A stretch of DNA of 64,000 nucleotides. It comes from an uncultured Clostridium sp. (lineage in GTDB: Bacteria > Bacillota > Clostridia > TANB77 > CAG-508). The notes beneath the pieces are model-generated. The model did not search any database. It was not told the origin of the DNA and worked only from the letters and a program-made list of their open reading frames with translations. Positions 22,371 through 26,898 of the stretch are shown here, piece after piece. Both the position numbers and the translations under genes were made by a program. The stretch spans positions 36,033 to 100,032 of the forward strand of contig CAOJFV010000001.1 in NCBI GenBank assembly GCA_948434985.1, read 5' to 3'. Within the stretch, counting starts at the first letter, position 1; every line of letters begins with the position of its first letter.

Positions 22371-22399
22371 TTGACATAATAAGAAAAATAGTATATAAT
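22371..22399 (+). promoter_or_regulatory. consensus sigma-A promoter
   Basis: TTGACA, 17-nt spacer, TATAAT, followed by a 5'-UTR hairpin gtatagt/actatac. Confidence 0.65.
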
Positions 22400-22464: not shown

Positions 22465-22980
22465 ATGGAAAGTTTTCAAGGCAAGCATTTTAGTATAACA
22501 GACCCAAAAGATGTAAACACAGTAATATACAGAATAAATAAAACAGAAAAAGAGTTTTTAAAAGATTCACCAAAATTTACAGTTGAAAGATTAGATTATA
22601 TGGAAGAACTAAATGGAGAACTAAAAAAGAAAACCTTTTTTGTTGATCACCCATCACCAGATGGAGAACAGCTTGTGATTTTATCATTTGGAAAGGATAA
22701 AGTAGTAGTAAATACTGGTATTATGGAAGAAGAAAAGCTACGTATTTCAAAAAAGCCAATCCCTGTTAAATTTAATACTTTATATTCAGAAGAAAGTTCT
22801 GTATATAAAGAATTTAAATATACACCAAATTTAAAAAGGCCAATATCAATAATTGACCCAGAAACCACAGAAGAAATAAAACCAATAGTATATTTGGATA
22901 AAGAAACCAATGAGGTAAAAGGTAAGTGTAAATTAAAACCATATAAATCTTATTTCGCATTTGAAATAAGAGAAGATTAA
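22465..22980 (+). CDS. hypothetical protein
   Basis: 171-aa ORF, first gene of a three-gene unit. Confidence 0.5.
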   Translation: MESFQGKHFSITDPKDVNTVIYRINKTEKEFLKDSPKFTVERLDYMEELNGELKKKTFFVDHPSPDGEQLVILSFGKDKVVVNTGIMEEEKLRISKKPIPVKFNTLYSEESSVYKEFKYTPNLKRPISIIDPETTEEIKPIVYLDKETNEVKGKCKLKPYKSYFAFEIRED

Positions 22981-23354: not shown

Positions 23355-25386
23355 ATGGGATATAAAATAGAAGGAGCTATGAGAAGAAATAAAAAGAATT
23401 TTATAATATTTGTAGTACTATGGGTAATTTTATCCATAGTATTCGTTATGCCTATAGCATATAGCATTACAAATGCATCAAGTGGTGGAGAATTTGATAT
23501 GGCAAAATTCTTTAATGGAATATATGAAGGAGTTACAAACTTAGGAACAGTTATAGGAAAAACATTCACACCAGATTATATAGGAACATTTTTCTCTACA
23601 CTATTAAAATTTAGTGTATTATATGCAATATTCGTATTAATAGGTCTAATAAAAACAGCTCCCAAAAATGAATATTCAGATATAGAACATGGTTCAAGTG
23701 ACTGGTCAAAAAATGGAGAACAATATAGAATTTTAAGTAACAAAAAAGGAATAATTTTAGCAAAAAATAATTATTTGCCAGTAGACAAGAGAGGAAACGT
23801 AAACGTATTAGTAGTTGGACGGATCAGGTTCTGGTAAATCAGCATCATATTCAATACCAAATGCATATCAAATGCTTGGGTCATACGTATTTACAGATCC
23901 AAAAGGAGAATTATACGATAAAACAGCAGGATATTTAAAACAACATGGATACGATATAAAAGTATTAAATCTAGTACGACCTGGGAATAGCGATGGATAT
24001 AACCCATTAATGCACATATCAAGTGAATTAGATGTAGACGTTATAGCAAACACAGTAGTAAAAGGACAAAAAACAGAATCAGGACAAGACCCTTATTGGG
24101 ATGATATGGCAGAAATGCTATTAAAAGCCCTAATTTATTACTTAATAGCAACCAGACCACCAGAAGAACAAAACCTATCAAGCTGTGCAGAATTAGTTAG
24201 AGCAGCAAACAAAAATGGTGGAAGTAACTTACTTACTGAATTAATGAATCAACTACCTTATGACCATCCAGCTAGAATGAACTATAAATCAATTGAAATT
24301 GCGCCAGAAAAAACATATGGTTCAATACTTTCTAGTTTACAATCAAAATTAGGAAAATTTGATTCAAAAGAAATAGCAGAACTAACATCTACAAATACAA
24401 TAGATTTTGAAGAAATAGGAAGTAAAAAAACAGCTGTATATGTTATATCATCAGATACACATACAGCATACGACTTCTTACTTACAATATTCTTCTCACA
24501 AATGATACAACAACTATACGATTTTGCAGATAGAAATGGTGGAAAACTACCAGTACCAACATACTTCATATTAGATGAGTTTGCAAACATTGGTAAAGTA
24601 CCAGATTTCGATAAAAAAATATCAACATCTAGAAGTAGAAAAATATCATTCAGCGTTATTTTACAAAACTTAGACCAATTAGAAGCAGTATATGAAAAAT
24701 CATATGAAACCATAATTGGTAACTGTGATACACATGTATTTTTAGGAAGTAACTCACAAAAAACAGTAGAATACTTCTCGAAAGCATTAGGAGAAAAAAC
24801 AATAGAAAGAGAAAGTGTATCCGTAAATAAAGATAAACACAATTGGAGACAAGGCGTAAACGTATCAGACCAAGTGATGGCAAGAGCGCTTATGACACCA
24901 GATGAATTAAGAAGAATGGATAATGACCTTTGTATCATTTACGAAAAAGGGATAAAACCAATAAAAGCAGAGAAATTTTATTACTTCCAAACAGGAATGG
25001 CAAGAAAGTTAGATGCATATACAATGAGTCACAATGATGTAGAACAAGTAGACAGAGGAGCATGGAGAAAGTACAATCCATATAATCCATATGTACCAGA
25101 AGATGAAAAGAAAAAACAAGTAGACAATTTAAAAGTAGAATCATTAGACGACTTATTTGATGAAACAGAAGAAAAGTCACAACCTAAAGAAGAAAATAAA
25201 TTAAGCGATAATAAATTAAATGAAGTAAAATTAGATGAAATAAAAGTAGAACCTATAAAAAAAGAAGAAGCACCAATATTACCACAAGGAGATAAAACGT
25301 TAGATGATGAATTAGATATGGACTTACAAAAAGAATTAGAAGCAAAATTTGATGAATTATTTGGTCCACTAGATGATAATGATTAA
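23355..25386 (+). CDS. type IV coupling protein (VirD4/TraG/TraD family ATPase); needs a +1 shift at CGG 23820
   Basis: N-terminal TM segments, Walker A VVGG-SGSGKS restored by the shift, and FILDEFANIG Walker B. Acidic C-terminal tail. Confidence 0.85.
23820..23822 (+). other. in-frame CGG, +1 recoding site
   Basis: gtt gga CGG atc agg ttc tgg taa. Shifted reading gives VG-GSGSGKSAS. Confidence 0.8.
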
Positions 25387-25422: not shown

Positions 25423-25462
25423 AAATAGTACACAGCAACAAAAACAAATGTTTTAAAAGATA

Positions 25463-25491
25463 TTGACTTTTTAACATTTATTATATATAAT
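25463..25491 (+). promoter_or_regulatory. sigma-A promoter of the small-peptide mRNA
   Basis: TTGACT, 17-nt spacer, TATAAT. Confidence 0.6.
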
Positions 25492-25562
25492 GCTAATTGA
25501 AAATAAGGAAAAGCAGAATGTGGTTGCCATCTCACTATACATAAGAATAGGAGGTGGTGCGA

Positions 25563-25676
25563 ATGATAGAAAGAGCATTAATACAATTTGTAATATTATT
25601 TTTTATTAGTCTATGTGCTATGACTATTATAGCAGTTGCCTTAATTATAGCTTTAGTTGTAATTATTAGCAAATAA
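25563..25676 (+). CDS. 37-aa hydrophobic peptide (type I toxin-like)
   Basis: Strong RBS AGGAGGTGG. Sequence MIERALIQFVILFFISLCAMTIIAVALIIALVVIISK forms a single TM helix. Below the ORF-track cutoff. Confidence 0.55.
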   Translation: MIERALIQFVILFFISLCAMTIIAVALIIALVVIISK

Positions 25677-25758
25677 AACGATACACATCTCTGCGCCATA
25701 GAGATGTGTACCAAAAAACATATCATAATTGTAACCACGCTTTGTGGACCTTATTTTC
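25672..25758 (-). ncRNA. candidate cis-antisense sRNA convergent on the peptide gene
   Basis: Starts after the minus-strand consensus promoter. Ends at hairpin tacacatctct/agagatgtgta, which has a U-tract only in the minus orientation. Ends are approximate. Confidence 0.45.
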
Positions 25759-25765
25759 TATAAAT

Positions 25766-25794
25766 ATTATATTATAGAAAATAATATTTGTCAA
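25766..25794 (-). promoter_or_regulatory. consensus sigma-A promoter on the minus strand
   Basis: The reverse complement reads TTGACA, 17-nt spacer, TATAAT. Confidence 0.6.
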
Positions 25795-25829
25795 TAAAAT
25801 AAAAACTATTTGATAGAGGAGATAAAATC

Positions 25830-26898
25830 ATGAAATTTGTACATATAGCAGATATGCATTTGGATGTACCATTTACAACACTTTCAAGAAATGGCTTAGG
25901 AGAAAAAAGAAGATTAGAGCAAAGAAAAATGTTTAAACAAATAATAGATTACATAGCACAAAACGAAATAAATTACTTATTTATTGCAGGTGATTTATAT
26001 GAACATGAATATGTAAAATATAGTACTATCGAATACATAAATAATTTATTTAAAGAAATACCAAACACTAAAATATATATAGTACCAGGAAACCATGATC
26101 CAAAAATAAAAGACTCATATTATAATAACTTTAACTGGAATTCAAATGTACATATTTTTGATGAGAAAGTTCGGAAAAGTAGTAGAAGCTGAGGTAGATA
26201 TATATGGATTTGGGTTTGATAATTTCTATAAACAAAATTCTAATTTAAATGAAATAAAAATAGAAGATCCAAGCAAAATAAATATTTTAATAACACATGG
26301 AGCATTAGATGGAAAAACTAAAGAAGATATGCAATACAATCCACTCTCAAAAAGAGAATTGAAAGCATTAGGTTTTGACTATGTGGCATTAGGTCACATA
26401 CATAAGCCATATTATAATGAAGAACAAGGTCAAAGAATAGTATATCCAGGTTCTACTATAAGCTTGGGATTTGATGAATTAGGCAGTCATGGAATGATAG
26501 TAGGAAACATAGAAAAAGATAAAAAACTAGAAATAACTTTTATACCTGTAAGTAAAACCGAATTTGTAGAAGACAAAATAGATATAAGTGAGATTATATC
26601 AAAAGAAGAATTAATAGAAAGATTAAACAATATTAAAACGGAAGAAAATAAATATTATAAAATTATTTTAATAGGAGCAAGAAACTTTGAAATAAACACA
26701 TATGAAATACTAAGATTAATAGAAAATAAAAATATAATCAAGCTTAAAGATAATACTAAACTAAAAGTAAATCTTGAAGAATTAACAAAAGAAAAAAGTT
26801 TAAAAGGAATATTTGTAAAAAATATGTTAGAAAAAATTACTATAGATAATGAAGAAGAAATTATTAAAGCAATAGAAATAGGGTTAGAAGTTATGTAG
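25830..26898 (+). CDS. sbcD: DNA repair exonuclease SbcD/YhaO-like (Mre11 family); needs a +1 shift at CGG 26172
   Basis: MKFVHIADMHLD, GDLYEH, GNHD and GHIH phosphoesterase motifs span both ORF halves. Confidence 0.85.
26172..26174 (+). other. in-frame CGG, +1 recoding site
   Basis: aaa gtt CGG aaa agt. Shifted reading gives KV-GKVVEAEVDIYGFG. Confidence 0.8.

What the first reader, a model, noticed from the sequence alone, without database searches (positions are those of the whole stretch)
25463..25794. Convergent hydrophobic-peptide / antisense-RNA unit resembling a type I toxin-antitoxin module
On the plus strand, a TTGACT-17-TATAAT promoter and a 65-nt leader with AGGAGGTGG precede a 37-aa single-TM peptide (MIERALIQFVILFFISLCAMTIIAVALIIALVVIISK). 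On the minus strand, a perfect TTGACA-17-TATAAT promoter at 25794-25766 fires towards the peptide gene. The hairpin at 25682-25710 carries a U-tract only in the minus orientation, which defines an RNA of about 85 nt overlapping the 3' end of the peptide mRNA. In addition, the first 10 nt of the predicted mRNA (gaaaataagg, 25499-25508) are perfectly complementary to 25749-25758. gtggttgc (25520-27) pairs with gtaaccac (25731-38). This is the kind of 5'-3' fold-back seen in hok-type and some Bacillus type I toxin mRNAs. The architecture parallels txpA/ratA and bsrG/SR4. The unit sits next to the orphan coupling-protein operon.
Basis: partly seen in the sequence, partly recalled or inferred. Interest (0 to 1): 0.7.

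Follow-up and report, generated by a model that had tools for sequence, protein, structure and literature searches.

The report
New type I toxin-antitoxin-like cassette family

Summary
The unit is one member of a conserved family. They lie at unrelated chromosomal sites, next to Mob_Pre relaxases, after a phage endolysin, and in clusters of 2-3.

Across 105 distinct units:
- The 33-38 aa hydrophobic ORF evolves as coding sequence.
- The antisense promoter matches consensus at 11/12 or better in 102 units and sits at a fixed position.
- The hairpin has a T-tract on the antisense strand only.
- The mRNA ends pair in a covarying 5'-3' helix.
- The SD is sequestered.

A covariance model built only from the other clade matches window 25759-25668 (-) end to end.

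No Rfam, Pfam, NCBIfam, PHROG, phage, plasmid or literature match exists. Known type I toxins do hit their own Pfam families in the same test.

The closest analogue is B. subtilis bsrG/SR4, which also has a 5'-3' clamp helix whose 3' half the antitoxin targets.

Verdict: a new family of a known kind (type I TA). Transcripts, toxicity and neutralisation are untested.

The parts
25440..25797 (.). Whole cassette, about 350 bp. The 5' edge is approximate and the 3' edge is sharp.
   Evidence: Family conservation collapses 2-3 nt beyond the antisense -35. It fades about 55-60 nt upstream of the mRNA start. The family profile HMM hits 25501-25761 at E = 3e-28, the only copy in the window.
25463..25491 (+). 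Peptide-mRNA promoter, TTGACT-17-TATAAT (11/12).
   Evidence: The segment 25438-25504 is 80-88% identical to the region directly upstream of sbcD in relatives that lack the unit. Clade A units at other loci have promoters at the same spacing.
25498..25760 (+). Predicted peptide mRNA, about 263 nt. Both ends are inferred, not mapped.
   Evidence: MFE -79 kcal/mol, z = -7.3, 0 of 200 shuffles fold as well. The same closed architecture appears in L017 (z = -8.3) and L039 (z = -6.5).
25499..25508 (+). 5' outer arm GAAAATAAGG, which pairs with 25749-25758.
   Evidence: Family-wide the outer helix is 94% paired, and 9 of 12 pairs show changes on both sides (4.0 in shuffles). Cognate arms give -20.6 kcal/mol, non-cognate -16.2, shuffled -8.5.
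25514..25528 (+). 5' middle and inner arm (…GAATGTGGTTGCC), which pairs with 25730-25744.
   Evidence: Clade A consensus: 8 + 7 pairs, 92-93% paired. The inner GGUUGCC/GGUAACC helix is nearly invariant. 105 of 106 units have the 3' arm 52-67 nt after the stop codon.
25526..25536 (+). Upstream anti-SD (GCCATCTCACT), which pairs with the SD.
   Evidence: These are the SD's partners in nascent, full-length and antisense-blocked folds. P(unpaired) of the SD is about 0.
25549..25558 (+). Shine-Dalgarno sequence AGGAGGTGGT.
   Evidence: GAGGTGGT is invariant across the subtypes.
25563..25676 (+). ORF for the 37-aa hydrophobic peptide MIERALIQFVILFFISLCAMTIIAVALIIALVVIISK (stop codon included).
   Evidence: Family peptides are 33-38 aa in two clades. 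Codon position 2 varies least, pN/pS is 0.44-0.63, and the other frames are mostly closed.
25624..25642 (+). In-ORF segment (CTATTATAGCAGTTGCCTT) that can pair with the start codon and SD, forming an alternative SD trap.
   Evidence: Clade A consensus: GAGGUGG/UUGCCUU is 100% paired but invariant. UAUGAUAG/CUAUCAUA has 4 pairs changed on both sides, against 1.8 in shuffles. The family-wide helix has 17 pairs, 94% paired.
25679..25713 (-). Intrinsic terminator hairpin of the antisense RNA. Its T-tract lies at 25678-25669.
   Evidence: 14 pairs with 5 G-C, followed by TTTTATTT. Family-wide the hairpin is below -8 kcal/mol in 105 of 105 units. A T-tract follows on the minus strand in 71 units and on the plus strand in 5. 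11 of 11 pairs covary.
25735..25747 (+). Small hairpin CCACGCTTTGTGG followed by a T-rich tail. It is a candidate weak terminator of the mRNA. Its complement forms the 5' hairpin of the antisense RNA.
   Evidence: A stem of at least 4 bp followed by at least 6 T in 10 nt occurs at this place in 76 of 105 units. The 5' hairpin of the sRNA has 5 of 5 pairs changed on both sides.
25749..25758 (+). 3' outer arm CCTTATTTTC.
25668..25759 (-). Predicted antisense RNA (candidate antitoxin), about 90-92 nt. It is complementary to the mRNA 3' UTR, the stop codon and at most the last two codons.
   Evidence: Covariance model R2, built only from clade B sRNAs, matches 25759-25668 end to end (31.4 bits, E = 4e-5, filters off). 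Its own fold has z = -3.4.
25766..25794 (-). Antisense promoter, TTGACA-17-TATAAT (12/12).
   Evidence: Family-wide it is 12/12 in 73 units, 11/12 in 29 and 10/12 in 3 of 105, placed 27-35 nt after the 3' arm. Shuffled controls mostly score 8-9.

Best explanation

The plus strand gives an mRNA of about 263 nt for a 37-aa single-helix membrane peptide, the presumed toxin. The mRNA is clamped shut by about 25 bp of pairing between its first ~30 nt and its last ~30 nt. Its SD is buried, first by an upstream anti-SD and alternatively by an in-ORF segment. As made, the mRNA should therefore be stable but poorly translated.

A consensus-strength convergent promoter makes an antisense RNA of about 90 nt. 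This RNA is fully complementary to the mRNA 3' UTR, including the 3' half of the clamp. Pairing would replace the clamp with a long perfect duplex, which is an RNase III substrate, and would free the mRNA 5' end for 5'-exonuclease attack. That would remove the toxin mRNA. If the cassette or its antisense RNA is lost, the stable mRNA would be translated.

What is shown: the anatomy, its conservation and its covariation. What is inferred: both transcripts, the toxicity of the peptide, the RNases involved and the trigger.
For: - Anatomy in the window.
- Family: at least 120 loci, 106 distinct full units.
- ORF under coding constraint.
- Antisense promoter at 11/12 or better in 102 of 105 units, at a fixed distance. 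mRNA promoters are mostly weaker, 7-10/12 in clade B.
- One-directional terminator.
- Covariation of the closing helix, leader hairpin and terminator.
- sRNA structure: 98.3% paired against 76.9% in shuffles, 16 of 16 pairs changed on both sides, 0 of 500 shuffles reach this.
- A clade-B-only model finds the window's sRNA with exact ends.
- SD locked in all modelled states.
- Hallmarks of type I TA loci: dispersed sites (163 flank clusters for 118 units), arrays of 2-3 copies, decayed copies at the same site in L032, L045, L091 and L172, copies beside Mob_Pre relaxases and after a phage endolysin.
- The mechanism parallels bsrG/SR4 as published (PMC3834814).
Against: - There is no transcript, toxicity or neutralisation data, and all hosts are uncultured MAGs.
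- The peptide lacks the cluster of charged C-terminal residues typical of many type I toxins. It has a single Lys in clade A and NKE in clade B.
- The mRNA 3' end rests on a weak 5-bp hairpin plus a T-rich tail. If the mRNA ended at the main hairpin, the clamp could not form.
- In the window both promoters are strong (11/12 and 12/12), so the usual antitoxin-over-toxin promoter bias is small here.
- The SD/in-ORF helix is conserved rather than covarying.
- The end trimming used for the outer-helix count was guided by complementarity, so that count is somewhat biased.
Confidence: 0.75

Rival explanations
1. This is an antisense-regulated small membrane protein with a non-toxic job, such as a modulator of a membrane protein, a holin or antiholin-like factor, or a phage-exclusion factor. 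The RNA architecture is the same, but the peptide is not a toxin and the RNA is a regulator rather than an antidote.
For: - The peptide has almost no charged tail.
- One viral copy lies right after an endolysin, with a weak holin PHROG hit at E = 0.3.
- pN/pS of 0.44-0.63 shows constraint on the sequence but says nothing about toxicity.
Against: - A consensus antisense promoter facing a tightly locked mRNA suggests the product must be kept off.
- So do multi-copy arrays, frequent decay and loss, and association with a plasmid and a phage.
- The positions next to unrelated genes give no hint of a partner protein.
Confidence: 0.17
2. This is a non-coding miniature mobile element. The 5'/3' complementarity would be terminal inverted repeats recognised by a transposase, and the ORF would be incidental.
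For: - The cassette is about 350 bp with a sharp 3' edge and inverted ends, and it sits at many unrelated sites.
Against: - The inverted ends differ between copies while remaining complementary, which is covariation and not a fixed transposase site.
- The ORF stays open with a coding substitution pattern.
- The promoters, SD and terminator are conserved.
- I saw no target-site duplication in the occupied and empty sites I compared.
Confidence: 0.04
3. This is a leader or attenuator of the downstream sbcDC operon. The peptide would be a leader peptide, and the antisense RNA would tune sbcDC expression.
For: - In the window the promoter segment is homologous to the region that directly precedes sbcD in relatives lacking the unit.
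- No good separate sbcD promoter lies between the unit and sbcD.
Against: - Only 5 of 118 units sit at this site.
- The others have unrelated neighbours in either orientation.
- Read-through into sbcD may still be a local side effect.
Confidence: 0.04

Closest known systems
bsrG/SR4 of Bacillus subtilis prophage SPbeta (TxpA/BsrG family)
   Same: - The toxin is a small hydrophobic peptide (38 aa) on an mRNA of about 290 nt.
- The mRNA is closed by a long helix P1 between its 5' end (nt 1-35) and a 3' region (nt 232-262).
- The SD is held in a local stem.
- A convergent antisense RNA is complementary to the 3' part of the mRNA, including the 3' half of P1.
- The antitoxin promoter is the stronger one.
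- Source: PMC3834814.
   Different: - The peptide does not match Hol_Tox PF16935, whereas BsrG and TxpA do.
- The antisense RNA here is about 90 nt rather than 180 nt, and it would lie entirely within the mRNA 3' UTR.
- The mRNA has no separate strong terminator after the clamp. Its T-rich 3' tail is itself the outer clamp arm.
- The modelled SD lock does not change when the antisense RNA binds, whereas SR4 tightens the bsrG SD stem.
txpA/RatA (B. subtilis skin element)
   Same: - Toxin mRNA and antisense RNA are convergent and overlap at their 3' ends, which is the layout of all Gram-positive type I TA families (PMC8594479).
   Different: - There is no peptide homology.
- There is no Rfam hit to any antitoxin family.
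- TxpA is longer, and its overlap with RatA includes more of the ORF.
hok/Sok and aapA1/IsoA1 (Gram-negative)
   Same: - A 5'-3' long-distance interaction keeps the full-length toxin mRNA inert.
- Alternative or successive SD-sequestering structures are present (PMC8594479; PMC6733600 appears, and what I say about it rests on my own knowledge).
   Different: - In those systems the antisense RNA binds the 5' region, and 3' trimming activates the mRNA.
- Here the antisense RNA targets the 3' clamp arm itself.
- The peptide does not match HOK_GEF.
Clostridioides difficile type I TA modules (for example CD2517.1/RCd8, CD0956.2/RCd10)
   Same: - They occur in Clostridia, with convergent overlapping toxin and antitoxin genes.
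- They are multi-copy and associated with prophages (PMC6563280).
   Different: - The C. difficile toxins are 34-59 aa with a lysine-rich C-terminus.
- The peptides here have at most one or two charged C-terminal residues.
- tblastn of these peptides against 50,697 phage records found nothing. I assume, but did not check, that this collection includes C. difficile phages.

Membership tests
Type I toxin-antitoxin systems (the kind) | A small (under 60 aa) hydrophobic, membrane-type peptide ORF with its own SD. | tested here: met
   37 aa, mean hydropathy 2.35, SD AGGAGGTGGT. A family of 33-38 aa peptides under coding constraint.
Type I toxin-antitoxin systems (the kind) | An antisense RNA gene with its own promoter and terminator, complementary to the toxin mRNA. 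| tested here: met
   This is met at sequence level only. 12/12 promoter plus intrinsic terminator in the window. Conserved in 102-105 of 105 units. Structure covaries. The covariance model hits 25759-25668. Actual transcription was not observed.
Type I toxin-antitoxin systems (the kind) | Toxin mRNA structure that blocks translation, by SD sequestration and/or a 5'-3' interaction. | tested here: met
   P(unpaired) of the SD is about 0. The closing helix is conserved and covaries.
Type I toxin-antitoxin systems (the kind) | The peptide is toxic when overexpressed, and the antisense RNA neutralises it. | not testable with these tools
   This needs expression experiments. The hosts are uncultured.
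Type I toxin-antitoxin systems (the kind) | The antitoxin promoter is stronger than the toxin promoter. | tested here: inconclusive
   Met across the family: antisense at 11/12 or better in 102 of 105 units, mRNA 7-10/12 in clade B. In the window the two are nearly equal, 12/12 against 11/12. Consensus match is only a proxy for promoter strength.
TxpA/BsrG toxins (Pfam Hol_Tox PF16935) with RatA/SR4 | The peptide matches the family HMM. | tested here: not met
   No hit at E up to 10 for three family peptides.
TxpA/BsrG toxins (Pfam Hol_Tox PF16935) with RatA/SR4 | The antitoxin RNA matches a curated RNA family. | tested here: not met
   No Rfam family reaches its gathering score in the unit. 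The best E-value hits are unrelated and lie in the upstream terminator.
Fst/RNAII (par) and Ldr | The peptide matches Fst_toxin PF13955 or Ldr_toxin PF13940. | tested here: not met
   No hit. The controls Fst, PepA1 and LdrD hit their families.
Fst/RNAII (par) and Ldr | Direct repeats make the 5' ends of the two RNAs complementary, so that the interaction lies outside the overlap. | tested here: not met
   The repeats here are inverted. The two RNAs therefore begin with the same ~11 nt rather than complementary ones.
Hok/Sok | The peptide matches HOK_GEF PF01848, and the antisense RNA binds the 5' leader. | tested here: not met
   No hit, while the Hok control hits at 1e-21. The antisense RNA lies opposite the 3' UTR.
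C. difficile type I toxins | [quoted passage not shown] | tested here: not met
   The C-terminus is ..VVIISK in the window and ..NKE in clade B. No direct sequence comparison was possible because no HMM is available.
Miniature inverted-repeat mobile element | Conserved terminal inverted repeats with target-site duplications and no coding constraint. | tested here: not met
   The ends covary rather than being fixed. The ORF is under constraint. No duplication was seen at the occupied and empty sites compared.

The most novel reading that the evidence does not exclude
The cassette is a new, lineage-wide family of selfish type I TA modules with its own logic, a "clamp-release" mechanism. The antitoxin RNA and the mRNA's own 5' end begin with the same ~11 nt and compete for the same 3' arm. 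Antitoxin binding therefore unzips the protective 5'-3' clamp instead of masking the ribosome site. The ~350-bp unit moves as a discrete module between chromosomes, mobilisable plasmids and phages of reduced-genome gut Clostridia. In places, as in this window, it would put host genes such as sbcDC under its transcriptional influence.
Probability: 0.3. Interest if true: 0.7.

Novelty: new member of a known kind. Interest (0 to 1): 0.55.

Why it matters
- Validated type I TA systems in Clostridia are limited to C. difficile. Homology searches with known toxins find almost nothing elsewhere (PMC6563280).
- This family would add a widespread module in abundant, uncultured gut Clostridia. Gene callers mostly miss it: only four related peptides turned up across two protein databases of billions of sequences.
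- More than 100 natural variants give a ready-made covariation map of a toxin mRNA clamp, two SD traps and an antisense RNA. That is useful for studying how 3'-overlapping antitoxins work and for designing RNA switches.
- The cassette also marks plasmid and phage DNA in these MAGs.

Tried and rejected
- blastn of the unit against the phage and plasmid collections found nothing. tblastn of two peptides found nothing either, though the low-complexity filter may hide such peptides.
- Rfam gave no relevant hit. PHROGs gave only a holin hit at E = 0.3.
- The 37-aa peptide was too short for two tools. The 40-aa GTG-extended form found only near-identical peptides. An exhaustive phmmer search found one relative.
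- nhmmer with single sequences missed most relatives.
The first covariance model was too narrow to reach clade A. The second needed filters off to find the window copy.
- The sbcD-leader reading was rejected because the copies are dispersed. The mobile-element reading was rejected because the ends covary and the ORF is constrained.
- The idea of a LexA box upstream of the mRNA promoter is only suggestive.
- A second hydrophobic small ORF at 46389-46505 lies antisense within a 143-aa ORF and is probably spurious.
- Pattern hits in Thiomargarita, Thermoanaerobaculia, Undibacter and Cytophagales are GC-rich chance matches without an ORF.

Full report
**Observation.**
- On the plus strand, TTGACT-17-TATAAT lies at 25463-25491 (11/12). 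It is followed by a leader of about 65 nt, the SD AGGAGGTGGT (25549-25558) and a 37-aa ORF (25563-25676) with mean hydropathy 2.35.
- On the minus strand, a perfect TTGACA-17-TATAAT lies at 25794-25766. Only three such sites occur in the 64-kb window, against 0.11 expected by chance.
- The hairpin at 25679-25713 is followed by TTTTATTT on the minus strand only. This defines an antisense RNA of about 90 nt.
- The predicted mRNA (25498 to about 25760) folds at -79 kcal/mol, z = -7.3. It is closed by GAAAAUAAGG/CCUUAUUUUC and GUGGUUGC/GUAACCAC, and its SD is paired to an upstream anti-SD.
- No Rfam family matches.

**It is a family.** The exact peptide and close variants occur at the same site in a few related genomes. 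That site lies between a coupling-protein gene and sbcD.
- Among 80 species-level orthologous loci, the intergenic region ranges from about 135 to 720 nt.
- Most of those species lack the unit.
- L039 has a divergent but complete unit with a different 33-aa peptide.
- L032, L045 and L091 hold decayed remnants.
- L017 has a further member at another site.
- The divergent units fold on their own into the same closed shape, with z = -8.3 and -6.5.
Nearly all are uncultured gut Clostridia MAGs from human, rabbit, chicken, mouse and ruminant samples. Four hits in unrelated phyla are chance matches without an ORF.

**Conserved anatomy, from 105-106 distinct units.**
- Peptides are 33-38 aa and fall into two clades. 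Clade A, the window type, reads M(I/V)E.ALL…TII..ALII.L.II.SK. Clade B reads M.FILFLI…TINVALLT.IYI…NKE.
- The ORF behaves as coding sequence. Codon position 2 varies least, pN/pS is 0.44-0.63, and the other frames are mostly closed.
- The antisense promoter matches consensus at 12/12 in 73 units, 11/12 in 29 and 10/12 in 3. It always sits 27-35 nt beyond the 3' arm. Shuffled controls mostly score 8-9.
- The mRNA promoter scores 7-10/12 in clade B and 8-12/12 in clade A.
- The hairpin after the stop codon is stable in all units. A T-tract follows it on the antisense strand in 71 units and on the sense strand in 5.
- Conservation stops 2-3 nt beyond the antisense -35, so the cassette has a sharp edge.

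**RNA structure.**

| Helix (family-wide RNAalifold, 104 units) | Pairs | % paired | Pairs changed on both sides | Same in shuffles |
|---|---|---|---|---|
| Outer 5'-3' helix | 12 | 94 | 9 | 4.0 |
| Inner long-range helix | 10-11 | 89-95 | almost none (nearly invariant) | - |
| Leader hairpin | 6 | 95.5 | 6 | 3.5 |
| SD and start codon / in-ORF helix | 17 | 94 | 5 | 3.6 |
| Terminator | 13 | 89 | 11 | 7.8 |

- Slid partners for the outer helix give about 50% paired.
- The sequence ends for this analysis were trimmed using complementarity, so I also ran an independent control. Cognate 5' and 3' arms give -20.6 kcal/mol, non-cognate arms -16.2 and shuffled arms -8.5.
- Clade A alone gives the same closure, 11 + 8 + 7 pairs, and the same SD/in-ORF pairing.
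- On a covariance-model alignment of 78 antisense RNAs (63 distinct), 98.3% of cells pair, against 76.9% in shuffles and 20-53% when partners are slid. All 16 pairs change on both sides, which 0 of 500 shuffles reach. The caveat is that the alignment was fitted to the model.
- A model built only from clade B matches window 25759-25668 (-) end to end (31.4 bits, E = 4e-5, filters off).

**Mechanism (inferred).**
- In the window mRNA the SD is paired to 25526-25536 in nascent, full-length and antisense-blocked folds, with P(unpaired) about 0.
- The family consensus offers a second trap inside the ORF.
- The antisense RNA is therefore unlikely to act by masking the SD. It is complementary to the whole 3' UTR, including the 3' half of the clamp, and it starts with the same ~11 nt as the mRNA.
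- Binding should replace the clamp with a 90-bp duplex and free the mRNA 5' end. Both changes favour decay.
- This parallels published bsrG/SR4. [quoted passage not shown]

**Genomic behaviour.**
- 118 units have 163 different flanking-gene clusters, with neighbours in either orientation.
- Three units follow a Mob_Pre relaxase (E = 8e-41). One viral-contig copy follows an Amidase_2/PG_binding_1 endolysin.
- Nine loci hold 2-3 copies within 8 kb, and several MAGs have copies on different contigs.
- The window has a single copy.

**Comparison and novelty.**
- The peptides hit no Pfam, NCBIfam or PHROG family. Fst, PepA1, BsrG, TxpA, Hok, Ldr and TisB all hit their own families in the same test.
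- No phage or plasmid record and no paper in the library carries these sequences.
- T1TAdb lists 24 families, and all Gram-positive ones have a 3'-side antisense RNA (PMC8594479). Validated type I TA systems in Clostridia are limited to C. difficile (PMC6563280).
- I therefore file this as a new family of a known kind. It works like bsrG/SR4 but is not a member of that family.

**Local context.**
- The promoter segment 25438-25504 is homologous to the sequence directly upstream of sbcD in relatives without the unit.
- I cannot tell whether the unit was inserted behind the sbcD promoter or whether those relatives kept a solo cassette promoter after losing the rest.
- Read-through into sbcDC is possible but untested.

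Noticed in passing
window 25830-26898: The SbcD-like nuclease gene next to the unit is split by a frameshift at residue ~117-122, giving 120-aa and 250-aa ORFs in overlapping frames. The same break is present in L002, L009 and L014. Most other species, including L039, have an intact gene of 351-362 aa. It could be a conserved pseudogene, a genuinely split gene or programmed frameshifting.
   Followed up: partly
window 23355-25386: The 'orphan' coupling protein consists of a 160-aa ORF plus a 523-aa ORF with T4SS-DNA_transf and TraG-D_C domains, in overlapping frames. It is 76-93% identical in more than 555 species-level genomes and lies in the same DUF1934/DnaJ neighbourhood. It therefore looks like a core chromosomal gene of this lineage, not a remnant of a conjugative element.
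   Followed up: partly
window 46030-46145 (-): A second perfect TTGACA-17-TATAAT (46145-46117, minus strand) is followed about 35 nt later by a hairpin, GACTAGGAGCCACCAAAGCTTTCCTAGTC, and a T-run. This is a candidate stand-alone sRNA of about 75 nt with no Rfam match.
   Followed up: no
window 25446-25457, and upstream of cassette copies in L094-L213: Conserved motifs lie just upstream of, or overlap, the mRNA -35. TGTTCGCTTG occurs in 43 of 113 units. CGAAA-N4-GTTC, which matches the GAAC-N4-GTTC LexA-type core at 7 of 8 positions, occurs in 9 of 113 units, against 0.7% of shuffles. The window has AAACAAATGTTT (6 of 8). This may be a regulator site, but it is unproven.
   Followed up: partly
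window 25751-25784: A perfect 13-nt palindrome, TTATTTTCTATAA-N8-TTATAGAAAATAA, spans the -10 box of the antisense promoter and overlaps the 3' outer arm. It could be an operator or an alternative RNA hairpin.
   Followed up: no
L032:5686-5834, L045:5816-5931, L091 (about 5950-6040), L172 (about 2270-2500): These are decayed cassette copies. In L032 the SD and the N-terminal part of the ORF are deleted. In L045 the ORF is deleted but the antisense RNA gene is intact (covariance model score 91.9 bits). In L091 the 3' part is missing. In L172 the start codon is mutated to ATA.
   Followed up: partly
window 22371-22399 (+): The third perfect consensus promoter in the window lies just upstream of the ORF that starts at 22465. 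It probably drives the operon that ends with the coupling-protein genes.
   Followed up: no
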